From a virus: a stretch of 64,000 nucleotides of DNA. The notes below the pieces were generated by a model. That model was given only the letters and a program-made list of their open reading frames with translations. It was not told where the DNA came from and made no database searches. Shown one piece after another: positions 25,262-46,716 of this stretch. Location of the stretch: positions 1-64,000 of the IMG/VR virus record IMGVR_UViG_3300031758_000004; one strand, written 5' to 3'. Made by a program: the position numbers and the translations under genes. Positions within the stretch are counted from its first letter, which is position 1. Every line of letters begins with the position of its first letter.

Positions 25262-26788
25262 ATGCTTATTGAAACACAATATTTGACAAATACGAAGAAA
25301 TTAGTTTGTAGTTATGTAGATAAAACCGGTGATATAAAACTTAAATATTATGACTGGGATAATCCAGTTAAATACGTTACTTGTGAGGAGAATGATCCTC
25401 AAAAACATCCAACTTATAAATCTTGGGATGGTAAATCAGTAAAATTGGTTCAAGTTGAGAGACCTGATAGATACGCAATCTATGAGTATTTAGACGCACT
25501 TCCAAAAGAAGAACAAGATGAGTTGTTTGAGTTTAACCTACCAAAGATTTACTTTATAGATATTGAAACTGAAATTATTGATGGTTTTCCTGAAGCTGCT
25601 GATATTAAAGATCAGCAAGGTAATGTTATACAAGAAGGAGCAGCTACTCAAGTTCTTTCAATATCAATTGTTTATGACGATAAAATTATCTTATTAGGTT
25701 TAAAGGATATGCCTGAAGATATGCAAGAACGTATAAGAACTAACACAAATAAATACTTTAAGAAATTTAATTCAGATTATAAGTTTAAGTATGTTAAGTA
25801 TGATGATGAGTTTGATATGTTATATGCTTTCTTTCATAAAATGGTTCCTAAAATGCCACTTTTAACTGGATGGAACTTCTTGAACTATGACTGGTTGTAT
25901 TTAGTAAACCGTTCTAGAAAAATATCCAAATGGATGAATGGTAAAGAATATAGAATCAATCCAAATGAATCATCGCCTTTAAAAAGATTGAATAAAATGT
26001 GGGGAACTGATTTTGAGGTACCAGCACATAGAATGATCTTTGATTACATGCAATTATATGAAATTTGTGATACTTCAATCAAGGTAAAAGAGTCATCATC
26101 ATTAGACTTTGTTTCTCAGAAATTAGTTGGTGTTGATAAAATTAAATATACAGGATCATTACAAAAACTTTATGAGGATGATTTTGAAACTTTTATGTAT
26201 TATAACGCTGTCGATAGTGTCTTAGTACAAAAAATTCACGAAGCAAGAAACTATATCTCTATTGTTTATGCGATCTCTTCATTATCGAGAATTAGAATTG
26301 TTGATGTTGTTTCTCAAATGAATAATGCTTTAGCTTCTTTAGCAATCACAGAAGGAGTTTTAAGAAATCGATTTAGAGAAATGGATAATATAGTTCTTTT
26401 CAAAGACGAAAAGGGAGATGGTGAATCAACTATTGCAGGTGGATGGGTTAAAGATCCAGTAGTCGGAATGAACAGATGGTGTGTTACTTATGATTTCAGC
26501 TCACTTTATCCCACAACACAACGTCAGTTTTACATAGCCCCTGAAAACTTCGTTGGTGTTCAATCAAGTAGAGATAAAACTATGTGTGAAAATGGTAGAG
26601 AAATTGATTTAAATAATCATGTGTTATGTGTAAATGGTGTAGTTTTCGAGAAAAGGTTATCACCCACACTCAAGATGTTGGAAGATATATATGCCGATAG
26701 AAAATATAATAAAAATATCATGATGAGCAAAAAGGAAGAGCTTAAAAAAGTACTTGATATGATCAAAGAATTGGAAAATGATATTTAA
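25262..26788 (+). CDS. Family B DNA polymerase, N-terminal fragment (gp43A-like)
   Basis: ExoI FIDIETE, ExoII GWNFLNYD, ExoIII YNAVD, motif A YDFSSLYP. Ends after RKYNK; no motif B NSxYG or motif C DTDS. Confidence 0.88.
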   Translation: MLIETQYLTNTKKLVCSYVDKTGDIKLKYYDWDNPVKYVTCEENDPQKHPTYKSWDGKSVKLVQVERPDRYAIYEYLDALPKEEQDELFEFNLPKIYFIDIETEIIDGFPEAADIKDQQGNVIQEGAATQVLSISIVYDDKIILLGLKDMPEDMQERIRTNTNKYFKKFNSDYKFKYVKYDDEFDMLYAFFHKMVPKMPLLTGWNFLNYDWLYLVNRSRKISKWMNGKEYRINPNESSPLKRLNKMWGTDFEVPAHRMIFDYMQLYEICDTSIKVKESSSLDFVSQKLVGVDKIKYTGSLQKLYEDDFETFMYYNAVDSVLVQKIHEARNYISIVYAISSLSRIRIVDVVSQMNNALASLAITEGVLRNRFREMDNIVLFKDEKGDGESTIAGGWVKDPVVGMNRWCVTYDFSSLYPTTQRQFYIAPENFVGVQSSRDKTMCENGREIDLNNHVLCVNGVVFEKRLSPTLKMLEDIYADRKYNKNIMMSKKEELKKVLDMIKELENDI

Positions 26789-26798
26789 TATATAATTA

Positions 26799-27767
26799 AT
26801 GGCTATTAAAATAGATAAAGATGAAATTTATAAAAGACTTAAATTAAAACACCCAGAATATACATTTGATATGAGTGATTATTTAAACACACATTCAAAA
26901 ATAAAAACGATCTGTGATAAAGGTCATGAATCTATACAAACTGTTAAGAATTTATTAAAAGGACATGGATGTAATACTTGTGGTAATAATAGATCTTCAG
27001 AAAAACAAAAGTCGAATTTTGATGATGTTCTAAAAAAGTTTAGAAGTAAACATGGTGATAAATACGACTATTCTGATTTTGTTTATAAAAAAAATAGAAT
27101 AAATTCCACTATAAACTGCCCTGAGCACGGACCTTTTCAACAATCAGCTTGGTCACATATGAATGGAAATGGGTGTGCATCTTGTTCAAATAATAAAAAA
27201 TTAGATACTGAAAATTTTATAAAAAGAGCAAAGAGTGTACACACTATTAATTATGATTATTCAAACGTAGAATATGTTAACATGAAAACACCGGTTACTA
27301 TAATATGTCCAAAACATGGACCTTTCACTCAAGTACCAGCTACTCATGTTATATCAGGATCCGGATGTCCTGTGTGCTCACAATCATATGGAGAGAGATT
27401 AATTGAACTTTTCTTAAATAAAAATAAAATAAGTTATGTGAGACAGAAGAAGTTCAAAGAGTGTTCTTATAAACAATTACTACCTTTTGACTTTTTCTTA
27501 CCTGAATATAACACTTGTATAGAATTTAATGGAATACAGCATTATCAACCAGTTGAGTTATTTGGTGGCGAACCTAATTACAAACTTACTATATTAAGAG
27601 ATAGTATAAAACAAAAGTTTTGTGATGATAATAGTATTAAACTGATTATAATTAAACAAGATAGAAAACATATAGATAAAAAGGATGTTAATCTACAAAT
27701 AGAGAATATAATAAATATATTGAATATCAAGGAATCATTTAAGATTTTTAAAATTCAAAGATTATAA
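26799..27767 (+). mobile_element. Free-standing homing-endonuclease-like gene (CPxHG repeats plus Vsr/DUF559-like nuclease)
   Basis: KHGDKYDY..CPEHG..GCASC repeats; IEFNGIQH. Confidence 0.8.
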
Positions 27768-34095: not shown

Positions 34096-34824
34096 ATGAC
34101 TACTCCACAATTAGAGAAAGTATATTTTAATTACATTTTAAAGAACAAGAAATATTTTGAGATAGTAAAGGCTTATTTTTTTAGAAATTCGGAAATTCAA
34201 TTTGTTTACGGCGTAATTAGAGAATATATGTTGAAAGGTTCGGATGTTGAAATCCCAACTCCGAGACAAATTTTAGACATGGTTAACCTTCAAGATAAAG
34301 AAGGTATGATAACCAAAGAGATTTTAAAATCAATTCTTCAAGTTAATCTTGATGAATATGATGAGAAAAACTTTATAGAACCAAACTTTAATGGTTGGGT
34401 TTTAGCAAATCGATTAAAAACTGGTACAGTAGATATCATCGATGAAACTAGAAATCTAGATTCAATATCTGACTTTGATAAAGCAGTCGAAGCTGCTAAT
34501 AGAATTAAAGGTATTGTTGATGAGATGTCATCAACTAGATTTGTACAAGATGATGATATGGGTTCAGATTTTGATGAGGCTGAAAATCACGTACAAGATT
34601 CCTCAAAATTTAAAGTTAAATGTGGATTCGAAACCATTGACCATATGCTAGGTGGTGGATGGGATATTTCTACATTAAATGTAATAATGGCTGAAACTAA
34701 CAACGGAAAATGTTGTTCTTTTGATACGGTGATAAAAGTTAGAGATAAGAATAATGGTAATGTTTCAAATGTTGATTTTGGAACATTCTTTGCCAAAGTT
34801 AGTCAGTGGGGTGTTGATATTTAA
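34096..34824 (+). CDS. dnaB: gp41/DnaB helicase N-terminal fragment fused to split-intein N-part
   Basis: CGFETIDHMLGGG..LNVIMAETNNGK, then CCSFDTVIKVRD (intein block A). Confidence 0.88.
   Translation: MTTPQLEKVYFNYILKNKKYFEIVKAYFFRNSEIQFVYGVIREYMLKGSDVEIPTPRQILDMVNLQDKEGMITKEILKSILQVNLDEYDEKNFIEPNFNGWVLANRLKTGTVDIIDETRNLDSISDFDKAVEAANRIKGIVDEMSSTRFVQDDDMGSDFDEAENHVQDSSKFKVKCGFETIDHMLGGGWDISTLNVIMAETNNGKCCSFDTVIKVRDKNNGNVSNVDFGTFFAKVSQWGVDI
34711..34821 (+). other. Split intein IntN, 37 aa (atypically short)
   Basis: Cys1 immediately after the Walker A GK; ends at stop 34822-24. Confidence 0.8.
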
Positions 34825-34847
34825 TATATAAAAATAAAATATTAAGT

Positions 34848-36029
34848 ATGAATGCAGATGCTAAAAAAAGATATAAGGATATAGAATTTCCTTACACTTG
34901 TCCTATTAGTAATAGAATATTTGAGAGTTCACAGGGTTTATCTTGTTATGTTACAAAAACATTGAAAATGAATCATGAAGAGTATTATGATACTTATATA
35001 AATCACAGAGACAATTCTTGTTTCTTTTGTGGTAGTAAAGGTAAGTTTATTTCTATATCAAAGGGATATAGAAATTTATGTGAGAGTCAAGAGTGTGTTA
35101 AAAAATCATTTAACTCTCATAGTGTAGAGGGATTCATGTATAGAAATATGCTTTCTAGAGAAGAAGCTGAAGTTCAATTTAAAATAGAAAATGAAAGGCA
35201 GTTGAAAGAAAGGATTGAATCACAAAATAAATTAAGAAAAATAGATAAAAATTGGGACAAAAAAAGAAGTAGAAACTGTAAGTATTTTTGGATTGAGAAG
35301 GGATATTCTGAAAAGAATGCTATTTTAAAAGCAAAAGAGGTTATGGATGAAATTCATTTAAAAACCTCTATTAAATTAAAATCAAATCCTGAAAAATATG
35401 CACATAAATATCCAACGAAAAAGGAGTACTATTTAAAAAGAGGTTTTAGTGAAGAGGAGGCTATTGAAAAGATATCTGAAATACAAAATAGATTTTCGTT
35501 ACAAAAATGTATTGAAAAATATGGCAAAGAAGATGGTAAAATAGTTTTTGAAGAGAGACAGAGGAAATGGATCGAAACAATAGATTCAAAAACAGAAGAG
35601 GAGAAAATAGAAATTAATAGAAAAAAATTATTTAATAATGGTGGATATTCTAAAATTTCACAAAATCTTTTCTGGAGTATTTATGAGAACTTTAAAAATA
35701 ACAAAATTAATTTTGAAGAGTTAAACTCAGAAACCATTAGATATGATAAAATAAATAAAAGACATTATAGATTTGATTATGTTGATCATAGTAAAAAGAA
35801 ATGTATTGAATTTAATGGTGATTATTGGCACTGTAACCCTGATAAGTATAATGAGAGCTTTATACATCCTATATTGAAAGTAACATCAAAAGAAATTTGG
35901 AAAAAAGATATTGATAAAATCAATTGGTTTAGAAAAAGGGGTTATGAAGTTTTTATTGTTTGGGAATCTGAATATAGAAAAAACCCGAAACAAACCGTAG
36001 AAAAATGTATAAAATTTATTAATGAATAA
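34848..36029 (+). mobile_element. Free-standing Vsr-like homing endonuclease
   Basis: C-terminal CIEFNGDYWHCNP..VFIVWESE; sits between the intein halves. Confidence 0.8.
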
Positions 36030-36471
36030 TTTAGATAATTTTGAAGTAATAGAAGCAGATAGTCTATTAGAAGGTAAGTATGATAGACCGCTTTATGATA
36101 AATTCATCGAAGCATATGAGGTGGATAATTTTGAGGTATTGACCCCAAATGGATGGGTTAATATAGAGGGTATTGGTAAAACAATAAAATTTGAAGAATT
36201 TGAAATTATTACCTCCGGTGGTAAAAATTTAATATGCGCTGACAAACATCTATTATATAGATGTGATAATATGGACTTTTCATCAAAAAAATGTGATTTG
36301 ACAGAGATATATTGTGAGAAATTAGAATTGGGTAATTTTATAATGACAAAAGATGGACCGGAGCAAATTATGAATATATCAAAAACCGGAAAAAATTCAC
36401 ATATGTATGATTTACAACTATCAGAGGGTTCTAATAAACAGTATTATATAAATGATATTCTTAGTCACAAT
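36022..36471 (+). other. Split intein IntC, 150 aa, containing blocks B, F and G
   Basis: Ends His-Asn (36466-71); Ser+1 at 36472. Confidence 0.8.
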
Positions 36472-37191
36472 TCTCTTTGGATGCAAAATTTTGCCGTTAA
36501 ATCAGCAAATATGGGACACAATGTTCTTTATATCACTCTTGAAATGAGTGAGCGTAAAGTTATGAAGAGATTAGGTGCTATGAGGTTAAAAATTCCTATT
36601 AATGATTATGATAATCAATCTAAGGATGTTGAATTGATTAAATCTAAGATAGATGCTCTCAAACGAATAGAAGGTGGTGTTGATTTATTTGAAAATAAAG
36701 TTGGTAAAATTATAACTAAATTCTGGGCAGCCGGAACAGCAACTGTTAATGACTTTGATAATTATATTCAAAGATTAAAAGAAAAGAGAGGTATAAAAAT
36801 CGACCTAATTATAGTTGATTATATTACATTGATTGCTGCTAATAAAGGATCTAATGCTGATAATCTTTATACTAAGGGTAAACACTTAGCAGAGGGATTA
36901 AGAGCAATGGGAGCAAAATATATGTGTCCTGTTATAACTGGTGTGCAGGTTGCTAAAGATGCTTGGAACTCATCCGATATTACATTAGAAGCCGTACCTG
37001 AGTCAAAAGCAATAGCAGAGACTGCTGACACCTTCTTTGCTATCATCCGTACAGAAGAAATGAAAAGACAAAACTTATATAGATTTAAACTACTTAAACA
37101 AAGAGATGGTGATTTCTTAAAATCACAGATTAGATTGAGTTTAAATCCAGTTTATTTAACACTAGAAAACGATCAGTTTTTAGATCAATAA
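36022..37191 (+). CDS. dnaB: Split-intein C-part fused to gp41/DnaB helicase C-terminal fragment
   Basis: VLTPNGW, LICADKH (block B), MYDLQL..ILSHN|SLWMQ; then YITLEMSE, IIVDYI, VITGVQ, ESKAIAETAD. Confidence 0.88.
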   Translation: MNNLDNFEVIEADSLLEGKYDRPLYDKFIEAYEVDNFEVLTPNGWVNIEGIGKTIKFEEFEIITSGGKNLICADKHLLYRCDNMDFSSKKCDLTEIYCEKLELGNFIMTKDGPEQIMNISKTGKNSHMYDLQLSEGSNKQYYINDILSHNSLWMQNFAVKSANMGHNVLYITLEMSERKVMKRLGAMRLKIPINDYDNQSKDVELIKSKIDALKRIEGGVDLFENKVGKIITKFWAAGTATVNDFDNYIQRLKEKRGIKIDLIIVDYITLIAANKGSNADNLYTKGKHLAEGLRAMGAKYMCPVITGVQVAKDAWNSSDITLEAVPESKAIAETADTFFAIIRTEEMKRQNLYRFKLLKQRDGDFLKSQIRLSLNPVYLTLENDQFLDQ

Positions 37192-38283: not shown

Positions 38284-39906
38284 ATGAGCATGATAAAAGT
38301 CACAAAAAGAAATGGTAAGAAAGAAACCGTTAATTTCAATAAGATTGTTGATCGTATAACACAACAAACTTATGGATTAGATCAAAAGTGGATAGCACCG
38401 TTTGAGATCGCACAAAAAGTTATTGAAGGTATTACACCAGATATTAAAACTTCTGTGTTAGATCAATTGGCAATGGAAACTGCGGCTTCTCTTACAACAA
38501 AACACCCAGATTACTCAGTTTTAGCAGCAAGAATCGCTATTACTTCTTTACATAAAGAAACTAAAAAGAGCTTTTCAGAAACAGTTAAAGATTTATATAA
38601 CTATGTAGATCCAATGACAGAGAAACATTCTCCAATTGTTTCTTTGGATTTTTACAACATTGTTAAAAAACACGCTGATGATTTAGATTCAGCTATTGTA
38701 CACTCAAGAGATCATAACTTTGATTACTTTGGTTACAAAACTTTAGAGAAATCTTACTTATTAAAAATTAATGGTAAAGTTGCTGAAAGACCTCAGTATA
38801 TGTATATGAGAACAGCACTTCAAATTTGGGGTGAAAACTTAGAAAAAGTAATTAAAACTTATAACGAATTATCAGAAGGTTATTATACTCACGCAACACC
38901 AACATTATTCAACTCTGGAACAGGTAGACCACAATTATCTTCTTGTTTCTTATTAGATACTGAATCAGATTCTATTGATGGTATTTTTAACACATTAAAA
39001 GAAGCTGCTCAAATCTCTAAAAACGCGGGTGGTATTGGTATCTCTTTTAACAAAGTAAGAGCTAAAGGAACTTATATTGCTGGTACAAACGGTACTTCAA
39101 ATGGTATTATTCCTTTCTTAAAAATCTATAATGAGACAGCGAGAGCGGTAGACCAAGGTGGTGGTAAACGTAAAGGATCAATTGCTATTTATATGGAACC
39201 ATGGCACGCTGATATTATGGACTTCTTAGATTTAAGAAAGAACCAAGGTAAAGATGAAATTAGAGCTCGTGACCTTTTCTTAGCAATGTGGATGAACGAC
39301 TTGTTTATGGAAAGAGTTGAGTTAGATGCTGATTGGTCATTAATGTGTCCTCACGAATGTACTGGATTGAATGAAACTTATGGTGAAGAATTTAACAAAC
39401 TTTATACTTCTTATGAAGCGGCTGGAAAAGCTAAAAGAGTTGTTAAAGCAAGAGAAGTTTGGAATAAAATATTAGAATCTCAAATTGAAACTGGTACACC
39501 ATACTTATTATACAAAGATTCAATCAATGAGAAATCAAATCAATCAAATATTGGAATGATACACTCATCTAATCTATGTTTAGATGGAGATACTTTAGTT
39601 AAGTGTAGAGTTGAAGGTGTAGAGAAAGAATTTGATATGGTCACAATAGATCTTATGTTTAAGAATGGTAAGAAAATAGAAGTTCTTTCTAGAGACTTAG
39701 AAACAGGAATTGATGAGTGGTGTTTGGTTGAAAACTCTGGTATAACCAATCATAATGCGGAAACTATCAAAGTAACAGATGAAAGTGGGAATTACATAAT
39801 CTGTACAGAGGATCATCAAGTTTGGACTCAAAATAGAGGATATGTTAGAGCTGGTGATTTAGAAGAAAATGATATTTTATTATTAAATGAAAAAGAACTT
39901 GTTTAA
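38284..39906 (+). CDS. nrdA: Class Ia ribonucleotide reductase alpha, N-fragment plus IntN
   Basis: ATP cone VTKRNG, ATPTLFNSG, LSSCFL, QGGGKRKG, SSNL|CLDGDT. Confidence 0.92.
   Translation: MSMIKVTKRNGKKETVNFNKIVDRITQQTYGLDQKWIAPFEIAQKVIEGITPDIKTSVLDQLAMETAASLTTKHPDYSVLAARIAITSLHKETKKSFSETVKDLYNYVDPMTEKHSPIVSLDFYNIVKKHADDLDSAIVHSRDHNFDYFGYKTLEKSYLLKINGKVAERPQYMYMRTALQIWGENLEKVIKTYNELSEGYYTHATPTLFNSGTGRPQLSSCFLLDTESDSIDGIFNTLKEAAQISKNAGGIGISFNKVRAKGTYIAGTNGTSNGIIPFLKIYNETARAVDQGGGKRKGSIAIYMEPWHADIMDFLDLRKNQGKDEIRARDLFLAMWMNDLFMERVELDADWSLMCPHECTGLNETYGEEFNKLYTSYEAAGKAKRVVKAREVWNKILESQIETGTPYLLYKDSINEKSNQSNIGMIHSSNLCLDGDTLVKCRVEGVEKEFDMVTIDLMFKNGKKIEVLSRDLETGIDEWCLVENSGITNHNAETIKVTDESGNYIICTEDHQVWTQNRGYVRAGDLEENDILLLNEKELV
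39577..39903 (+). other. Split intein IntN, 109 aa
   Basis: CLDGDTLV (block A), ICTEDHQV (block B), YVRAGDLEEND. Confidence 0.88.
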
Positions 39907-40786
39907 TTATGAGGATTTTATAACAGATAACATAGATAATACATCCTTTATCTATGTTTATCTGGATCCTAGAAAATCAGGAGACTATAAATATGGTGAA
40001 TATGAATTTAATCATGAACCTTTTTATGTTGGTGCTTCTAGTGGTAAAACTATACATGATCGAAAAGTTCGACATTTACAATACGCGAAAAACGATAAGG
40101 ATATAACAAATAATAATTACAAAAAGAATATAATAAAGAGTATATTATCAGATAAATTAGAACCAATTATATTGAAATATATTGATGGTATGAGTATATC
40201 AGATGCCTTTTTTAAGGAAAAAGATATGATACTAATCATTGGTAATAGATATGATAAGTCAGGACCTCTAGTTAATATATCAAAAGGAGGAGATGGTGGT
40301 GATAACTTTACTAATAATCCAAGAAAAGAGGAGATAAGAGAAAAGCATAGAAGAAATGCTTTAGGATCGAATAATAATATGTATGGTCTTCCTTTAGAAG
40401 AATATCCATCACATAAAGCAAAGTTGAGAGGAGAACATTGGAATATGGGTAGAACCGCGTCAATATCAACAAGAGAAAAGCTATCCAAACAAAGAAGTGG
40501 ATCTGGTAATAGTAGAGCTAAAAAAACTTTACTTTTTGATAAAGACTTCAATATAATTAGAGAATTTGATTATTGTTTTGATGTATCTAATTATATTAAC
40601 TCATCAAATAGGTCGGTTTCCAAGACCGCAAGTACAAATTCAAAAGAGGAAATGTATCCATATCATACAACAAAAGGTTATTATATAATCTATAAGGATG
40701 ATTGGGAAAATAAATTTAAGAATAAAGAAAATGAAATTAGAGAATATCTAAAGACATTTAAGAAAAATAAAAATCAATTTTCATAA
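39887..40786 (+). mobile_element. Free-standing GIY-YIG-like homing endonuclease
   Basis: FIYVYLDPR..FYVG..R, LVNISKGGDGG, NNMYG. Confidence 0.8.
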
Positions 40787-40803
40787 AAAATAAAAAAAAT
40801 ATT

Positions 40804-40899
40804 ATGATCAAAATCGAAAAAGTAAAAAATAGACCAGTTTATGACATTACTGTGAATAAAAATCACAACTTTTATGCTAATAATATATTAGTACATAAC
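40804..40899 (+). other. Split intein IntC, 32 aa
   Basis: Blocks F and G ending His-Asn; Cys+1 at 40900. Confidence 0.88.
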
Positions 40900-42165
40900 T
40901 GTGCTGAAATAGTTGAAGCGACAGGCGTTACTAAAACGCAAAAAGCTATTTTAGAAAATAAAGAGTTATTAGAGAAATTAGGGTTAGGTGAATTCTGGGG
41001 TCAAGAAGAAGTAAATGAAACAGCAGTTTGTAACTTAGCTTCTTTAGCACTTCCTAAGTTTATCAATAAGAATAAAACTTATAATTTTAATAAACTTTAT
41101 GATATTGCTTATGATGCGATTGTTAACTTAAATAATGTTATTGATGTTAACTTTTATCCATCACCATCAGCTAAATTTTCTAACTTATGTCATAGACCAG
41201 TTGGTTTAGGTGTTCAAGGATTAGCAGATGTTTTCTTTCAATTAGGATTACCATATGAATCTGAAGAGGCTAAACAATTAAATAAAGATATTTTTGAAAC
41301 TATCTATTACGCTTCAATTAAAGCTTCTTGTGATTTAGCTAAAGTACAAGGCACTTACGCAACTTATGAAGGTTCACCTATTTCACAAGGTAAATTCCAA
41401 TTTGATTTATGGGGAACTAAACCTAGTAAAAGATGGGATTGGGATAAATTAAGAGAAGAAGTTAAGAAGTATGGTGTTAGAAACTCTTTAACAACTTGTA
41501 TCATGCCAACAGCATCAACAGCTTCTATCTTAGGTAATGAAGCATCTTGTGAAGCTCAAACTTCAAATATGTACACAAGAAGTGTTCTTTCAGGAACTTT
41601 CATTATGGTAAATAAATATTTAGTTAAAGAATTAGTTAAGTTAGGATTATGGAATGAAAATTTAAGAAAGAAAATTATTGCTGAGAATGGTTCGGTTCAA
41701 AATGTACCTGAAGTACCAACTAACTTGAAAGAAATCTTTAAAACTGTTTATGAGATTAAACAAAGAGATGTTATCGAGATGGCTGCTGATAGAGGAGCGT
41801 TTATTGACCAAACTCAATCAATGAATATTTTTATGGATTCTCCAAACTTTGCTAAGTTGACAGCGATGCACTTCTATGGATGGGGTAGAAGAAACTTAAT
41901 GACCAATGAAAATGGTGAAGTTATTATCCCACAAGGAGAAAATATTCAAGTTATTTACGATTCAGAAGGTAAAGCAAGATGTTATAAAGATAAGAGATAC
42001 ACATTAAAAACTGGTATTTATTATTTAAGAAATAAATCAGCGGCAGACGCAGTTAAATTCACTGTACAACAAGATACGGCTAAGAAAACTGTTGAAGAAC
42101 AAATGGCTGAAATCTCGTGTAGCTTAGATTCAGATCCTGGTGAATGCATGGCATGCGGCTCGTGA
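40804..42165 (+). CDS. nrdA: IntC plus ribonucleotide reductase alpha C-fragment
   Basis: MIKIEK..VYDITV..NFYANNILVHN|CAEI; VCNLAS, GLGVQG, MPTASTA, DQTQSMN, terminal CMACGS. Confidence 0.92.
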   Translation: MIKIEKVKNRPVYDITVNKNHNFYANNILVHNCAEIVEATGVTKTQKAILENKELLEKLGLGEFWGQEEVNETAVCNLASLALPKFINKNKTYNFNKLYDIAYDAIVNLNNVIDVNFYPSPSAKFSNLCHRPVGLGVQGLADVFFQLGLPYESEEAKQLNKDIFETIYYASIKASCDLAKVQGTYATYEGSPISQGKFQFDLWGTKPSKRWDWDKLREEVKKYGVRNSLTTCIMPTASTASILGNEASCEAQTSNMYTRSVLSGTFIMVNKYLVKELVKLGLWNENLRKKIIAENGSVQNVPEVPTNLKEIFKTVYEIKQRDVIEMAADRGAFIDQTQSMNIFMDSPNFAKLTAMHFYGWGRRNLMTNENGEVIIPQGENIQVIYDSEGKARCYKDKRYTLKTGIYYLRNKSAADAVKFTVQQDTAKKTVEEQMAEISCSLDSDPGECMACGS

Positions 42166-42192
42166 TATATAACTGATTATCAAATACTTATA

Positions 42193-42225
42193 AATGGTGA
42201 GAGTTTACTTTCGCCATTTTTTTTT
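42193..42225 (+). terminator. Intrinsic terminator after nrdA
   Basis: aaatggtgagag-ttta-ctttcgccattttttttt. Confidence 0.8.
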
Positions 42226-42358
42226 CTATAAAAATAAATCTCTTTTAACGTCTCTATTTATTTTACTACAAAGTGGTTGTAAGTTGGTATAGTGATTTAA
42301 TCTAATAACATCCTCTTCTGTTTCAGATGATGGTATTCATTACTTCTTTAGCTTTCAT
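42226..42358 (-). pseudogene. Relic: short MKAKEVMN start joined out of frame to an HNH endonuclease C-terminus
   Basis: Minus strand reads MKAKEVMNTII* in one frame and ETEEDVIRLNHYTNLQPLCSKINRDVKRD in another; the latter is near-identical to the end of HNH 60459-61238. Confidence 0.7.
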
Positions 42359-42476
42359 ATTTTATATATTAAATTTGATTTGTACATTTTTGTACATTTT
42401 CTGTATAAAATCCACACTTTTTCGATTGTAATTTTAATTACACATATATAATCATATTAAAAAAATTAAAACTTTT

Positions 42477-42507
42477 TTTGGTAATTAAAATAAAAGATGT
42501 ATATTTG
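42477..42507 (+). promoter_or_regulatory. Bacteroidota-type housekeeping promoter upstream of the RNA/Ro locus
   Basis: TTTG (42477-80), 19-nt spacer, TATATTTG (42500-07). Confidence 0.7.
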
Positions 42508-42598
42508 TAAAAGATTTCTGACTGAGATTTAACAAATGAAAATCTTTTAAAGAAATTTTAAACTTTTTAAAATATAAATATAAAATAAAAACAAAATT

Positions 42599-42673
42599 AC
42601 CGTAGTTAGAGAAAAGGTTACTTCGCAATTTTTAGGATAATTTCAAAACACACCTTATCTCAATTTTCTCGGT
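42599..42673 (+). ncRNA. Putative Y RNA-like RNA 1 (~75 nt)
   Basis: Ends pair (ACCG/CGGU, GAGA-AAGGU/ACCUU-UCUC) around UACUUCG; located upstream of the Ro/TROVE gene. Confidence 0.65.
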
Positions 42674-42682
42674 CATTATTAA

Positions 42683-42914
42683 AACAGACATAGCAATAGC
42701 TCTGAGATACTTCGAACTATAAATAACAATTCAGATCGAAAAGTGTCAAAAGCGACAGCTACGACTACCAAGAAGGTATATTCTCTGGAATATTCTGAGG
42801 TGAAAAAGTCCGTTAGTCTTCACGTTACGGAGACGAGTGGAATGGTCACTACAACCATTGATAGAGTTTCGGGAGAATTCTCTATGACGCTTAGGCTAAA
42901 CTTTCTTGTCTGTT
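42683..42914 (+). ncRNA. Putative Y RNA-like RNA 2 (~230 nt, multi-hairpin)
   Basis: AACAGACA/UGUCUGUU and UAGC-CUGAG/CUUAG-GCUA terminal stems, UACUUCG motif, internal hairpins; GC-richer than its flanks. Confidence 0.65.
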
Positions 42915-42923
42915 ACTTATTAT

Positions 42924-42967
42924 AATGACCAGGATATACAAATGTATAGTTCTGGTCATTTTTTTTT
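42924..42967 (+). terminator. Intrinsic terminator after the RNAs
   Basis: aatgaccagga-tatac-aaat-gtata-gttctggtcatt followed by a T-tract. Confidence 0.8.
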
Positions 42968-43014
42968 GTAGAAATTAAAGAAATTAAAAATATTAAAATA
43001 AAATTAAAGAAATT

Positions 43015-43485
43015 ATGGCTAGATTTAACGCAACATTACCTAAACAAAAGACCTTAACTAATAACTTAGCAGGAGGTCAAGCTTATTCACAATCTGATGA
43101 ATTAGCATTAGTATCATTTTTACTAACATCATTTGTTAGTGATCAATTTTATAGATCATCTGATCAATCTTTGAATGAGTTGAAAAAACTTTTAATCAAA
43201 GTTGATCCTGTTTTTGCCGCTAAAGCAGCTATTTATGCCAGAGATAAGTTTGGTATGAGATCTGTTGCACATGCTTTAGCAGGTGAGTTAGCAAAGTATT
43301 TATCTGGAAAAGATTTTGCTAAGAATTTCTATGATAAAATAGTTGTTAGACCTGATGATATGATGGAGATATTAGCTTATTATAATACAAATTGTGGGAC
43401 TAAAATTCCTAACTCTATTAAAAAGGGATTCGCAAAATCATTTGATAGATTTGATGGTTATCAGTTGTCTAAATGGAAAAAATGA
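43015..43485 (+). CDS. Ro60/Rsr (TROVE) protein, N-terminal fragment
   Basis: NNLAGGQAY, FYRS, AAIYARDKFGMRS, VVRPDD, SIKKGFA..FDGYQLSK. Confidence 0.85.
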   Translation: MARFNATLPKQKTLTNNLAGGQAYSQSDELALVSFLLTSFVSDQFYRSSDQSLNELKKLLIKVDPVFAAKAAIYARDKFGMRSVAHALAGELAKYLSGKDFAKNFYDKIVVRPDDMMEILAYYNTNCGTKIPNSIKKGFAKSFDRFDGYQLSKWKK

Positions 43486-43520
43486 TATTTGAAAAATAAT
43501 ATATACTTAAAAAGTATATT

Positions 43521-44195
43521 ATGAGTTTTTTTATTTCAAAAGAAGATTTGGAGTATTTATATTTTGTGGAAAATTTATCTTACTCTAAAATTGAAAAAAA
43601 ATTAAACTTAAATCGAGGTGTTATATATCACTGGTTTAAAAAATATGAAATTAAACCAAGAAACTACTCAGATGCTGGTAAAGGTAGAAAATTTACAGAT
43701 GAACATAAGAAAAAAATTTCATTTTCAAATTCCAAGCCACATACCGAAGAGAGAAAAAAAAATATATCAAATTCACACTTAGGTAAAAATTTAACAGATG
43801 AGCATAAAGATAAAATAAGAAGTAAATTTATAGGACTTAGACCTGGATTTAAACACCCTATGTGGAAAGGAGGTAGATCCACATTTAGAAATAGATTACA
43901 ACAATCATCTCTATATAAGGAATGGAGAAAATCTATATATGATCGTGACTTATATAAATGTCAAATTTGTAATAGTGGTGGTAAATTAAATTCACATCAT
44001 ATTATAAAGTTCTCAAAGATTGTAGAGGATTACAATCTTTTAAAATACGAAGATTACATCATGTGTAATTTTCTTTGGGATATAGATAATGGAATTACAT
44101 TATGTGAAAAATGTCACCATAGTATAAAAGGTATAGAGGAAAAATTTGAAGAAAAATTTAAAAGTATAATTTATGAAAAAAAGAAAAATGTATAA
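43521..44195 (+). mobile_element. Free-standing HNH endonuclease inserted in the Ro60 gene
   Basis: N-terminal HTH, NUMOD3-like repeats, CQIC..SHHI..NGITLCEKCH; own TAATATATA at 43497. Confidence 0.85.
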
Positions 44196-45147
44196 ATTAG
44201 TTGACGTTGTTAACTTAGTACACCCAGTGCCAACAGAGAAAAACTCTGAAGCACTTAACTTATTAATCAATGATAAGTTAAAAAACACTGATACTTGGGA
44301 AGCTAAGTTATCAGCAGCTGGTCAATCAGCTGAGAACTCAGAAGATTTGGCACAATTAAAGGCTGATGCTTGGACAGAGTTAATCTCTACAAGAAAATTG
44401 GGTTACTTTGCTCTTTTAAGAAACTTGAGAAACATTGTCTCTCAAGCTCCACAATCTGTTACTGCGGCTTGTGAAATGTTGGTTGATGAAAAATTAATCA
44501 AAAAGAGTAGAGTTTTACCATTCAGATTCTCTACAGCTTATGAAGAAATCTCTAAGCTTCCTTCAAACAAGGAAACAAGACAAGTGTTAGTTGCTATCAA
44601 CAACGCTCTTGAAGTTTCAGTACAAAATGTACCAAAGTTTGAAGGTGAAACATTACTTGTAATGGACGTATCTGGATCTATGAGTGGTAGACCATCAGAA
44701 ATTGCGAGTTTATTCGGAGCAATTATTGCGAAAGCAAATAACTGTGACGTTATGACTTTCTCTACAAGTGCTAATTATAAGACTTACAATCCATTGGATT
44801 CTGTAATGACAATAAGAAGCTCTTTTAGATACTCTGGTGGTGGTACTAACTTTAAGTCTATCTTCCAAAATGCTAATAAGGCTTATGATAACATCGTTAT
44901 TTTAAGTGATATGCAAGGTTGGATTGGTTATACATCACCAAGTGCTGAGTTTAACCAATATAAGAAAAGATTTGGGGCTAATCCTTCAGTATTCTCTTGG
45001 GATCTTGCTGGGTATGGTACTTTACAACTACCTGAAAATGGTGTTTACTGTTTGGCTGGTTTTTCTGATAAAGTTTTTGATGTAATTGAATTACTAAAAA
45101 CTGACAGAAATGCGTTAGTAAACGAAATTAAATCCATTGAGATTTAA
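44173..45147 (+). CDS. Ro60/Rsr (TROVE plus vWA) protein, C-terminal fragment
   Basis: KLVDVVNLVHP, TWE..LS, ALLRNLRN, RVLPFRF, MIDAS DVSGSM, GGTNF, LSDMQ. The start may be ATG 44188, overlapping the HNH stop. Confidence 0.85.
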   Translation: MKKRKMYKLVDVVNLVHPVPTEKNSEALNLLINDKLKNTDTWEAKLSAAGQSAENSEDLAQLKADAWTELISTRKLGYFALLRNLRNIVSQAPQSVTAACEMLVDEKLIKKSRVLPFRFSTAYEEISKLPSNKETRQVLVAINNALEVSVQNVPKFEGETLLVMDVSGSMSGRPSEIASLFGAIIAKANNCDVMTFSTSANYKTYNPLDSVMTIRSSFRYSGGGTNFKSIFQNANKAYDNIVILSDMQGWIGYTSPSAEFNQYKKRFGANPSVFSWDLAGYGTLQLPENGVYCLAGFSDKVFDVIELLKTDRNALVNEIKSIEI

Positions 45148-45151
45148 TAAC

Positions 45152-45182
45152 AAAAAACCCACTCATTTGAGTGGGTTTTTTT
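45152..45182. terminator. Bidirectional intrinsic terminator
   Basis: aaaaaacccactc-attt-gagtgggttttttt. Confidence 0.85.
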
Positions 45183-45945
45183 ATTTCCATATATTTTCTA
45201 AATTTATTCTAGAGGTTATTTCAATAACTTTATCTCCTTTTTTGAGTGTGTATTTATGTAATCCTAAGAATTTATTTATTATACTATCAACTTTATATTT
45301 TTCATCATCATCTAAATCATTATTAAATATTTGAATTAGATTATCTATTTCATCATAAGTTAAAAAGTCTTTGTTACCAACAAAATAAACAAAGTTATAA
45401 TTATATTCATTATACTTTTCAGCACCCGGTTCATAAGATTTATCTATTAGAAATTGAGTTATTGAGTTTTCAACGCCTAATGATGGTAATGTAAATTTAT
45501 ATCCATCAATTAAAAACTCTTTTAATTCATTATTCCAATTTTTATTTAGATGTTTAAAATTAAAATAGTTAAAATTTTTTGATTCAAAATCAACAACGTG
45601 ATCTTCACCAAATTCATCAAAGTAGAAAATTTTAATCTTTTTATTCTTTGTAAATTTTACTATTTCAAAAAATAAGAAAATAACATCAATACTTTTTATA
45701 TACTCAAATGTATAACTATCTGGTATAATAATATTCTTCTTAACGATCTTCTTAACTTTTCTAAGAACTACACTTAAATCATCTATTACAAAGCCCATCT
45801 CATAGTCTTTTATATCTTTATCATTTGCTTTTTTGATAAAGACTTTAAAGTCATTATTATAAAAATAACCTTGTGATGGTAAGATACTTAAATCTATTTC
45901 TTTCTTTTTGGAAAAGATATTCTTTATAAAATCAATTATTCTCAT
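45181..45945 (-). CDS. Possible baseplate hub-related protein
   Basis: LPSQGYFY motif as in gp26-like proteins; likely start MRIIDF. Confidence 0.4.
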   Translation of the reverse strand: MRIIDFIKNIFSKKKEIDLSILPSQGYFYNNDFKVFIKKANDKDIKDYEMGFVIDDLSVVLRKVKKIVKKNIIIPDSYTFEYIKSIDVIFLFFEIVKFTKNKKIKIFYFDEFGEDHVVDFESKNFNYFNFKHLNKNWNNELKEFLIDGYKFTLPSLGVENSITQFLIDKSYEPGAEKYNEYNYNFVYFVGNKDFLTYDEIDNLIQIFNNDLDDDEKYKVDSIINKFLGLHKYTLKKGDKVIEITSRINLENIWK

Positions 45946-45996
45946 AAAATATATATATTTTTTTAGAGAGCTCATGTCAAGTTTATATATACAACT

Positions 45997-46716
45997 ATGT
46001 TAGTTCATGATGATTGCTTTAACTATATATCTAATTTAAAAGATAAATCAATTAGTTTGATATTAACAGATCCACCTTATCAAATATCCAAGTCATCAAA
46101 TTTTAAAAACTATTCAGATAAAGCTAATTCTGATATAATAACAAAGTATGGTAGTCACTCTATTGACTTTGGTGAATGGGATAAAGAAGAAATTAACTGG
46201 GATCTCTTATTTAAAGAATATTTTAGAATATTAAAAGATGGTGGTACTCTAATATTCTTTTTTGATATATGGAAGTCAACTATTATAAAAGAAATAGCCG
46301 ATAAGTATAAATTCAAACAAGCAAGAGTTTGTCAATGGCAAAAAACCAATCCAGTTCCTATAAATTCTAAAGTTAATTATCTTTCAAATGCTAACGAATA
46401 TTTTTTCACTTTTGTAAAAGGTAAGAAACCTACTTTTAACTCCGAGTATGATAATGGTGTTTATAGATATCCAATTTGTCATGGAAAAGAAAGATTGGAT
46501 CACCCAACTCAAAAGCCACTTAGTTTAATACAAGATTTAGTTAAAAAACACTCTAATGAAGGTGATTTGGTGTTGGATACTTTTGCTGGATCTGGTACAA
46601 CCGGTGAAGCCTGTCAAATTTTAAATAGAAAATATATTTTAATTGAAAAGGATGAAAATTATTTTTTATTGATAAAAAATAGGTTAGGAGAAAACAAAAC
46701 AGAAATAAATACATAA
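45997..46716 (+). CDS. DNA N6-adenine/N4-cytosine methyltransferase (beta class)
   Basis: ILTDPPY, HPTQKP, DTFAGSGTT. Confidence 0.9.
   Translation: MLVHDDCFNYISNLKDKSISLILTDPPYQISKSSNFKNYSDKANSDIITKYGSHSIDFGEWDKEEINWDLLFKEYFRILKDGGTLIFFFDIWKSTIIKEIADKYKFKQARVCQWQKTNPVPINSKVNYLSNANEYFFTFVKGKKPTFNSEYDNGVYRYPICHGKERLDHPTQKPLSLIQDLVKKHSNEGDLVLDTFAGSGTTGEACQILNRKYILIEKDENYFLLIKNRLGENKTEINT

What the first reader, a model, noticed from the sequence alone, without database searches (positions are those of the whole stretch)
43015..45147. Ro60/TROVE gene split by an HNH gene with no intron or intein: candidate two-chain Ro
Seen: the N-half ends YQLSKWKK*, and the C-half resumes (M)YKLVDVVNLVHP, with its ATG overlapping the HNH stop. 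Intact TROVE proteins read roughly YQLxKY-(short loop)-KLVDVVNLVHP, so almost nothing is lost. Both halves are frameshift-free. There is no room for a group I core and no intein motifs. Known: Aeh1 nrdA is split by mobE and works as two polypeptides. Inference: the Ro ring reassembles from two chains, or the insertion toggles the Ro/Y RNA system.
Basis: partly seen in the sequence, partly recalled or inferred. Interest (0 to 1): 0.8.

Follow-up and report, generated by a model that had tools for sequence, protein, structure and literature searches.

The report
Phage Ro60 gene split by homing endonuclease
A large uncultured lake phage carries its Ro60 RNA-binding ring protein as two separate genes, cut in a surface loop by a mobile HNH endonuclease gene; the same cut recurs in dozens of related phages with both halves well preserved, so the ring is probably built from two chains, a known kind of gene splitting seen here for the first time in Ro60.

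Summary
The Ro60/TROVE N-half (43015-43485, 156 aa), an intact HNH endonuclease gene (43521-44195) and the C-half (44173-45147, 324 aa) lie in a row. About 180 intact relatives read YQLAKY[KR]GxxKx[VFY]KLVD at the break. The window reads ...KWKK* and MKKRKMYKLVD..., so nothing of substance is lost.

I found no intron, intein or Rfam match. In an AlphaFold model of the closest intact relative, the break falls in a 9-residue loop between two helices.

New points:
- The split is not unique. There are 27 clusters of 154-157-aa N-halves, at least 12 clusters of C-half-only ORFs and 22 clusters of the HNH. I read eight other split loci as DNA.
- The HNH spreads by homing. The window's N-half head and C-half body are about 93% identical to an intact relative (L118). 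The segment of about 43263-44203 belongs to a haplotype found only in split alleles.
- That haplotype has diverged deeply under purifying selection (omega 0.03-0.2). The window's halves keep 90 of 92 family-conserved residues. Two loci have lost the HNH yet keep both halves open.

Best reading: a two-chain Ro (about 0.65), a new member of the Aeh1 nrdA/mobE "genes-in-pieces" kind. Assembly of the two chains is inferred, not shown. The scan has noted this stretch before in another window.

The parts
42600..42965 (+). Conserved structured non-coding RNA region (candidate Y-like RNAs) ending in a hairpin plus T-run, directly upstream of the Ro N-half. This is context for the Ro system.
   Evidence: The region is conserved in 15 of 17 upstream regions aligned, from intact and split loci alike. 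RNAalifold gives a multibranch fold with 6 compensatory pairs plus a terminator hairpin. There is no Rfam match.
43015..43485 (+). Ro60/TROVE N-half ORF, 156 aa, ends KWKK then TGA.
   Evidence: It aligns to phage phiLo Ro60 (9L5Y) residues 18-168. There are 27 database clusters of the same 154-157-aa form.
43015..43262 (+). Resident part of the N-half (codons 1 to about 83), about 92% nucleotide identity to the intact allele L118.
   Evidence: Sliding identity. Maximum-likelihood breakpoint at nt 248, with mismatch rate 0.08 to its left and 0.33 to its right.
43263..44203 (+). Imported tract: the co-converted N-tail (codons about 84-156), a 35-nt spacer, the HNH gene, and the C-half leader.
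   Evidence: Breakpoints. The N-tail forms a clade made only of split alleles (9 of 9, support 0.935). Its haplotype (12-residue loop NCGxKIPNS, KW[KR]) is found in 27 of 27 split N-halves, in none of the closely related intact proteins among the 122 from the fetched loci (a few distant ones share single features), and in none of the 106 closest intact database proteins.
43486..43520 (+). Spacer carrying TAATATATAC (43497-43506), a candidate phage promoter for the HNH gene and the C-half.
   Evidence: The motif is enriched in the window (45 matches against 24 +/- 5 expected) and lies 10-25 nt upstream of several ORF starts, including the endonuclease genes at the PolB and DnaB breaks.
43521..44195 (+). 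Free-standing HNH homing endonuclease gene, 224 aa, with NUMOD3 repeats and the CxxC...HH...N...CxxCH motif.
   Evidence: Pfam and PHROG phrog_8446. 22 full-length clusters all keep the motif. Omega is 0.12-0.27 between copies.
44173..45147 (+). Ro60 C-half ORF, 324 aa (rest of the HEAT ring plus the vWA domain). Its start overlaps the HNH ORF by 23 nt.
   Evidence: It aligns to 9L5Y residues 217-491 and to 1YVP. It is 93% identical in protein to intact L118. The MIDAS residues are kept.
45152..45182 (.). Terminator hairpin (CCCACTC / GAGTGGG) flanked by an A-run and a T-run. It closes the three-gene unit.
   Evidence: Read directly from the sequence. It aligns to terminator stems of Rfam leader families. 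No terminator-like site was found between the halves.

Best explanation
A free-standing HNH homing endonuclease gene sits inside the Ro60 (TROVE plus vWA) gene of a large phage, in the DNA that encodes a surface loop between two HEAT-repeat helices. The cassette supplies the stop codon of the N-half (KWKK*) and, inside its own 3' end in another frame, the start codon and Lys-rich leader of the C-half (MKKRKM). The gene is therefore expressed as two polypeptides of 156 and 324 aa, probably from one transcript, with C-half translation coupled to the HNH ORF.

The element spreads between related phages by cutting intact Ro alleles. Repair then copies in the HNH gene together with about 220 nt of upstream N-half sequence and about 30 nt downstream. 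Shown here: the anatomy, the recurrence, the mosaic structure, the selection signatures, and the loop position in a model. Inferred: the two chains reassemble non-covalently into a working Ro ring, held at the cut and at the ring closure where the N-terminus meets the C-terminal helix and vWA domain. This would let the phage tolerate the parasite, and the gene can stay in two pieces after the endonuclease decays.
For: 1. Anatomy and loop position. In the AF2 model of the intact sister L118 (pLDDT 84.8, pTM 0.80), the break falls in loop 158-166 between helices 152-157 and 167-174. The model matches solved Ro60 structures (TM up to 0.77).
2. Recurrence. There are 27 N-half clusters of 154-157 aa, at least 12 C-half-only clusters of 320-325 aa (11 of them beginning MKK[RI]KM and one called from the inner ATG), and 22 HNH clusters whose contig lengths pair them with N-half clusters. 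Eight further split loci were read as DNA, and all their halves are open.
3. Homing with co-conversion. Identity profiles and breakpoints support it. The N-tail is monophyletic for split alleles, while the N-head and C-body are polyphyletic and each sits next to an intact sister.
4. Selection in the split state. The N-tail haplotype occurs only in split alleles, yet has omega 0.03-0.2 with dS >= 0.8. This compares with intact-intact controls at 0.11-0.15 for similarly diverged pairs (0.04 for one very close pair).
5. No excess change on the window branch. It has 2-5 amino-acid against 21-30 synonymous unique changes; its intact sister has 6-9 against 18-31.
6. Conserved residues. 90 of 92 columns that are >=95% conserved in intact proteins are kept, within the intact range.
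7. HNH loss. L119 and L117 have lost the HNH down to 100-nt and 50-nt remnants but keep the N stop, the C start and open halves. L124 has two extra genes between the halves.
8. Precedent. Aeh1 NrdA split by mobE is active as two chains (PMC3045599).
9. Same window. The PolB, DnaB and NrdA genes are also fractured by endonuclease genes.
Against: No protein-level evidence of association exists, and I could not run a heterodimer model. Each split allele has a close intact sister (87-95% protein identity in the C-body). Invasions are therefore fairly recent, and most conservation outside the N-tail could predate the split. One lineage (L039) shows a possible excess of amino-acid changes (N:S about 1 against 0.2-0.4; p = 0.03 with one outgroup and 0.34 with another). 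Split alleles are a minority, 9 of about 190 loci fetched. L117 and L119 share an identical 125-nt junction although their N-halves differ at dS 0.9. The population therefore recombines, and vertical descent in the split state cannot be assumed.
Confidence: 0.65

Rival explanations
1. Recent gene disruption. The HNH gene has simply knocked out Ro in these phages. The halves look healthy only because invasions are young and the element keeps moving into fresh intact alleles, while old split alleles die out.
For: Every split allele has a close intact sister. Ro is likely non-essential for a phage, and intact alleles far outnumber split ones. L039 hints at relaxed constraint.
Against: The N-tail that always travels with the endonuclease has diverged to saturation at synonymous sites but has omega 0.03-0.2, and it is never seen in intact alleles. 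HNH-less derivatives keep both ORFs and the conserved start. No broken half was seen among 9 N-halves and 7 complete C-halves. 90 of 92 conserved residues are kept.
Confidence: 0.22
2. The halves are each kept for separate jobs and do not reassemble. For example, the vWA-containing C-half might act alone and the N-half might be an RNA-binding or regulatory fragment.
For: Both ORFs are under constraint. In L124 they lie 1.6 kb apart with unrelated genes between them.
Against: The cut lies in the middle of a continuous HEAT-repeat ring. In solved Ro60 structures the N-terminus packs against the C-terminal helix and vWA domain (PMC12135203), so isolated halves would expose large hydrophobic surfaces. 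Residues conserved in intact rings stay conserved in both halves.
Confidence: 0.07
3. The two ORFs are rejoined at the RNA or translation level, by a cryptic self-splicing intron, by trans-splicing, or by ribosomal bypass. Bypass is suggested by the exactly 50-nt gap in L117, which recalls T4 gene 60.
For: The N and C ORFs of the window share a frame. L117 has a 50-nt gap between the N stop and the C start. Group I introns with HNH ORFs are common in phages (established knowledge).
Against: Rfam finds no intron family at E<=10 in the window, or at gathering score in five split loci. Only 35 nt of the insert is non-coding. The 50-100-nt remnants in L117 and L119 are too short for a ribozyme core. 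The frames of the two halves differ in L117 and L119. The start codon and leader of the C-half are conserved, which a spliced product would not need. A 687-nt gap is far beyond any known bypass.
Confidence: 0.04

Closest known systems
Aeromonas phage Aeh1 nrdA split by the free-standing HNH endonuclease gene mobE ('genes in pieces'; Crona et al. 2011, PMC3045599)
   Same: A free-standing HNH homing endonuclease gene sits inside a conserved phage gene with no intron or intein. The cassette creates the stop of the first piece and the start of the second, leaving short new tails on both polypeptides. The product is proposed here, and shown there, to work as two chains.
   Different: The target is a non-enzymatic RNA-binding ring (Ro60), not an essential enzyme. 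The new tails are only 1-2 and about 4-6 residues and are Lys-rich. Dozens of natural split alleles are seen, with a mapped co-conversion tract and HNH-less descendants. Function is not tested here.
Intronless homing by T4-type free-standing endonucleases (Seg and Mob families; review PMC2988022; mobE trans-homing PMC2790892; nuclease genes at exchange boundaries PMC10448857)
   Same: The element spreads by cleaving endonuclease-lacking genomes and is copied in together with flanking DNA, which produces mosaic alleles.
   Different: These elements usually lie between genes. Here the element lies within a coding region, and a protein-coding flank of about 73 codons travels with it as a distinct haplotype.
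Fractured genes with split inteins and an endonuclease gene between the halves (Dassa et al. 2009, PMC2677866); present in this same window in nrdA
   Same: The order is N-fragment, endonuclease gene, C-fragment on one strand.
   Different: The Ro halves carry no IntN or IntC blocks and abut native Ro sequence directly. By contrast, the window's NrdA pieces show intein-splicing matches at the break.
Phage and bacterial Ro60 with Y-like RNAs (Thermus phage phiLo phiRo60, PDB 9L5Y/9KOP, PMC12135203; Chen et al. 2014, PMC4201824)
   Same: TROVE HEAT ring plus vWA domain with MIDAS residues, and a conserved structured RNA gene just upstream.
   Different: All described Ro60 proteins are single chains. 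The upstream RNA here matches no Rfam family.

Membership tests
Ro60 / TROVE family | TROVE (HEAT-repeat ring) sequence signature | tested here: met
   PF05731 matches both halves above its cut-off (29.2 and 45.9 bits against 23). phrog_850 positions 1-131 and 161-464 of 476 are covered.
Ro60 / TROVE family | C-terminal vWA domain with MIDAS residues (DxSxS, T, D) | tested here: met
   vWA Pfam matches were all just below their curated cut-offs. DVSGSM, GGGTNF and LSDMQG are present, and the invariant columns D323, S325, S327, T383 and D404 are kept.
Ro60 / TROVE family | Closed ring fold like solved Ro60 | tested here: met
   Met for the intact sister L118, which is 93% identical to the window's C-half. 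The AF2 model matches 9nfa, 1yvp, 9kop and 2nvo at E 1e-16 to 1e-12, with TM up to 0.77. Not tested for the two-chain form.
Ro60 / TROVE family | Binds a Y RNA or misfolded RNA | not testable with these tools
   Only a conserved structured RNA upstream was seen.
HNH homing endonuclease (free-standing) | HNH catalytic motif with zinc-binding cysteines | tested here: met
   The motif CQIC...NSHH...DNGITLCEKCH is present. The Pfam HNH and HNH_2 matches are sub-threshold, but PHROG phrog_8446 matches at E 1e-20.
HNH homing endonuclease (free-standing) | Mobility: the same gene at the same site in otherwise divergent genomes, with co-converted flanks | tested here: met
HNH homing endonuclease (free-standing) | Site-specific cleavage of the endonuclease-lacking allele | not testable with these tools
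   Inferred only. The asymmetric tract suggests a cut site upstream of the insertion point.
Genes-in-pieces (functional two-chain product after endonuclease-gene insertion) | Gene interrupted by a free-standing endonuclease gene without an intron or intein | tested here: met
Genes-in-pieces (functional two-chain product after endonuclease-gene insertion) | Both pieces maintained by selection | tested here: met
   The caveat is that part of the signal may predate each invasion.
Genes-in-pieces (functional two-chain product after endonuclease-gene insertion) | The pieces assemble into an active protein | not testable with these tools
   No multimer modelling or biochemistry was available.
Group I intron with endonuclease ORF | Ribozyme core (P3-P9) | tested here: not met
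   No Intron_gpI match at E<=10. Only 35 nt of the insert is non-coding.
Intein or split intein | N- and C-terminal splicing blocks flanking the break | tested here: not met
   The halves end and begin in native Ro loop sequence, and Pfam finds no intein match, unlike the NrdA pieces in the same window.

The most novel reading that the evidence does not exclude
Endonuclease-driven permanent gene fission. The HNH cassette converts single-chain Ro60 into a stable two-subunit ring. The split outlives the endonuclease: HNH-less alleles L117 and L119 persist, and L124 has unrelated genes between the halves. The Lys-rich tails donated by the cassette (KK and MKKRK) sit beside the region where Y RNA binds the ring, and they contribute to assembly or RNA contact, as the mobE-derived tails do in Aeh1 NrdA.
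Probability: 0.4. Interest if true: 0.65.

Novelty: new member of a known kind. Interest (0 to 1): 0.5.

Why it matters
This would be the first Ro60 known to be made from two chains. It marks a natural split site, in a loop next to the helices that contact Y RNA in solved structures, which could be used for split-Ro engineering and assembly studies. It is also an unusually well-sampled natural record of the life cycle of a free-standing homing endonuclease inside a coding region. The record covers invasion of several lineages, a protein-coding flank that hitch-hikes as its own haplotype, decay of the endonuclease, and survival of the fission. Only a handful of 'genes-in-pieces' cases are known, and one (Aeh1 NrdA) has been tested.

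Tried and rejected
The genomic context of the 27 database N-halves could therefore only be inferred from matching contig lengths and from loci fetched by the search for related loci.
- Rfam scans for introns and Y RNAs found nothing in the window or in five split loci. There are no tRNAs in the window.
- The intein and split-intein readings were rejected by direct alignment.
- My first reading was an ancient single split followed by vertical divergence. I rejected it after the mosaic and tree analyses. This also weakens plain pairwise dN/dS between split alleles, so I relied on the N-tail clade and on relative-rate tests against intact sisters.
- Only one copy of this HNH is present in the 135.8-kb record.
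- The phage GenBank collection holds only one related, unannotated 635-kb genome, and it carries an intact allele.
- A literature search for TROVE together with homing endonuclease found nothing relevant.
- The terminator scan missed the obvious hairpin at 45158-45182. I read it from the sequence instead.
- A heterodimer fold could not be run because the tool takes single chains only.

Full report
**What is there**

The window lies in a 135.8-kb IMG/VR virus record. It is related to unannotated huge-phage genomes such as LR745206, 635 kb. Three + strand ORFs lie in a row:
- 43015-43485: 156 aa, ending YQLSKWKK*.
- 43521-44195: 224 aa.
- 44173-45147: 324 aa, beginning MKKRKMYKLVDVVNLVHP.

Pfam places TROVE on the first and third ORFs and a vWA domain on the third. 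It places NUMOD3 plus HNH on the middle ORF. PHROGs agrees: phrog_850 'RNA-binding protein' covers positions 1-131 and 161-464 of 476, and phrog_8446 is an HNH endonuclease family. The insert is lower in G+C (0.23-0.28) than the C-half that follows it (0.34-0.37); the N-half is 0.28-0.31. A strong hairpin plus T-run follows the C-half at 45158-45182. No terminator-like site lies between the halves.

**Is anything lost?**

About 180 intact relatives were fetched from viral and metagenome contigs. All read YQLAKY[KR]-GxxKx[VFY]-KLVD[IV]VNLVHP in one frame. Aligned from both sides, the window's N-half covers the loop through KYK plus one residue. The C-half covers it from about its second residue (MKKR-KMY-KLVD against KGEN-KEV-KLVD). 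The loop is replaced, not deleted.

The ATG at 44173 and the leader MK[KVI]xK[ML] are present in every split allele. That start lies inside the last 23 nt of the HNH ORF, in another frame. The HNH tail ...YEKKKNV* is conserved as well.

**No intron, intein or bypass**

- Only 35 nt of the insert is non-coding.
- Rfam found no intron family at E<=10 in 42000-45400, and nothing at gathering score in the window or in five split loci.
- There are no intein blocks. In the same window, the two NrdA pieces do carry intein-splicing matches around a GIY-YIG gene.
- Derivatives with only 50-100 nt between the halves (L117, L119) cannot hold a ribozyme, and their halves lie in different frames.

**Structure**

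An AlphaFold2 model was made of the closest intact relative (L118, with 66 aligned sequences). Its mean pLDDT is 84.8 and its pTM is 0.80. The break falls in a 9-residue loop (158-166) between helices 152-157 and 167-174. The model matches solved Ro60 rings 9nfa, 1yvp, 9kop and 2nvo, with TM up to 0.77.

By sequence, the N-half aligns to Thermus phage phiRo60 residues 18-168 and the C-half to residues 217-491. In that structure the HEAT domain is residues 25-306 plus 478-492. [quoted passage not shown] I infer that the N-half would be held by the C-half on both of its ends. Two distant intact relatives (L074, L076) carry an in-frame insertion of about 70 residues just after the loop, so this part of the ring tolerates change.

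**The split is widespread**

- A search of 5.8 billion proteins found 27 clusters of stand-alone N-halves. They are 154-157 aa long, 67-98% identical to the window's, and all stop within two residues of the same point.
- Among the 120 best C-half matches, 12 clusters are C-half-only (320-325 aa). Eleven begin MKK[RI]KM and one was called from the inner ATG.
- The HNH has 22 full-length clusters (50-100% identity), all with the CxxC...HH...N...CxxCH motif.
- I read eight other split loci as DNA:
  - L039, L120, L121 and L122: N-half, HNH, C-half.
  - L124: the HNH plus a ferredoxin-like gene and a small ORF between the halves.
  - L119 and L117: the HNH is reduced to 100-nt and 50-nt remnants.
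  - L038: the N-half only, at a contig end.
- All 9 N-halves and all 7 complete C-halves are open.

**It spreads by homing**

- In its first 80 or so codons, the window's N-half is about 92-94% identical in nucleotides to the intact allele L118. Beyond that it is only 64-71% identical to L118. There it is closest to the split allele L119 (79-87%).
- The window's C-half is 93% identical in protein to L118, and at most 74% identical to other split alleles.
- Likelihood breakpoints place the imported tract at about 43263-44203. L122/L056 and L039/L158 have upstream breakpoints at codons 88 and 91, and L119/L057 at codon 49. Downstream tracts are 30-90 nt in WIN, L122 and L119; for L039/L158 the strongest change-point in the C-half lay instead near its 3' end (codon 305).
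- In trees, the N-tail (codons 93-156) unites all 9 split alleles in an exclusive clade (support 0.935). In the N-head and C-body trees they are scattered, each next to an intact sister.
- The N-tail haplotype has a 12-residue NCGxKIPNS loop where close intact alleles have 16 residues with KFP, and KW[KR] in place of KY[KR]. It occurs in 27 of 27 split N-halves. None of the closely related intact proteins among the 122 from the loci carries it, though a few distant ones share single features (4 have KW, 5 have KIP, 3 have a 12-residue loop). None of the 106 closest intact database proteins carries it.
- The long upstream tract and short downstream tract suggest that the enzyme cuts upstream of its insertion point, as T4 Seg and Mob enzymes do. 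This is inference.

**Are the halves functional?**

Because invasions are independent, similarity between split alleles outside the tract says little. Four lines of evidence remain.

1. The N-tail travels only with the endonuclease and has diverged to synonymous saturation (pS 0.5-0.83). Its omega is 0.03-0.2. Intact-intact controls give 0.11-0.15 for similarly diverged pairs (0.04 for one very close pair), and the HNH itself gives 0.12-0.27. Protein-level constraint on a dead fragment is not expected.
2. Relative-rate tests against intact sisters show no excess change on the window branch: 2-5 amino-acid and 21-30 synonymous unique changes, against 6-9 and 18-31 for L118. L122 and L119 show none either. 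L039 may be somewhat relaxed.
3. The window's halves keep 90 of 92 columns that are >=95% conserved in 66 diverse intact proteins. Intact sequences themselves miss 1.65 on average.
4. The HNH-less alleles keep the stop codon, the start codon, the leader and open halves.

Weaknesses of this case:
- Each split allele has a close intact sister.
- L117 and L119 share an identical 125-nt junction while their N-halves differ at dS 0.9. Recombination therefore blurs histories.
- No assembly data exist.

I put the two-chain Ro at about 0.65, a recent knock-out at about 0.22, separate functions for the halves at about 0.07, and rejoining at the RNA or translation level at about 0.04.

**Comparison with what is known**

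The closest case is Aeh1 nrdA split by mobE. There, tails created by the insertion are needed for activity (PMC3045599). This is the same kind of event in a new protein, with much shorter tails and a far larger natural sample. I found no paper linking TROVE or Ro60 with homing endonucleases. Jumbo-phage TROVE proteins are known (PMC7824862), and one phage Ro60 has been solved (PMC12135203). I therefore file this as a new member of a known kind.

**Earlier notes of this scan**

One search shows that the scan had already noted this stretch in another window. It had also flagged the upstream Y-like RNAs and the other fractured genes. I checked those two points in part.

Noticed in passing
window 42600-42965 (+): A conserved structured non-coding region lies directly upstream of Ro in nearly all relatives, intact and split. 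It has repeated TACTTCG boxes, a multibranch fold with 6 compensatory pairs, and a terminator hairpin. It matches no Rfam family. It is a candidate Y-like RNA or RNAs.
   Followed up: partly
window 25262-27767, 34096-37191, 38284-42165: Three more genes in the window are broken by endonuclease genes. PolB stops after profile position 150 of 453 and is followed by a DUF723/treble-clef ORF. A DnaB C-terminal piece follows two unassigned ORFs. NrdA is in two pieces with intein-splicing matches around a GIY-YIG ORF.
   Followed up: partly
window 43497-43506, 26786-26795, 34822-34831 and others: The motif TAATATATA[AC] is enriched (45 matches against 24 expected) and lies 10-25 nt upstream of many ORF starts. 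These include the endonuclease genes at the Ro, PolB and DnaB breaks, where it is preceded by GATATTT. It is a candidate phage promoter carried at the 5' edge of each endonuclease cassette.
   Followed up: partly
L124:4754-5578: In one split allele, a ferredoxin-like gene (phrog_3704) and a 62-aa ORF lie between the HNH gene and the Ro C-half, so the halves are 1.6 kb apart.
   Followed up: partly
L117:1199-1330 and L119:1070-1200: Two HNH-less split alleles share a 125-nt identical junction (HNH tail remnant plus C-half leader), although their N-halves differ at dS about 0.9. This suggests recent transfer of a defunct junction, perhaps by trans-homing or ordinary recombination.
   Followed up: no
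L074:4001-5674 and L076:4001-5596: These distant intact Ro relatives carry an in-frame insertion of about 70 residues, predicted to be helical, just downstream of the loop where the HNH splits the gene.
   Followed up: no
window 45181-45975 (-) and 45997-46716 (+): A 264-aa ORF with no Pfam match and an N6/N4 DNA methylase (PF01555) follow the Ro locus.
   Followed up: no
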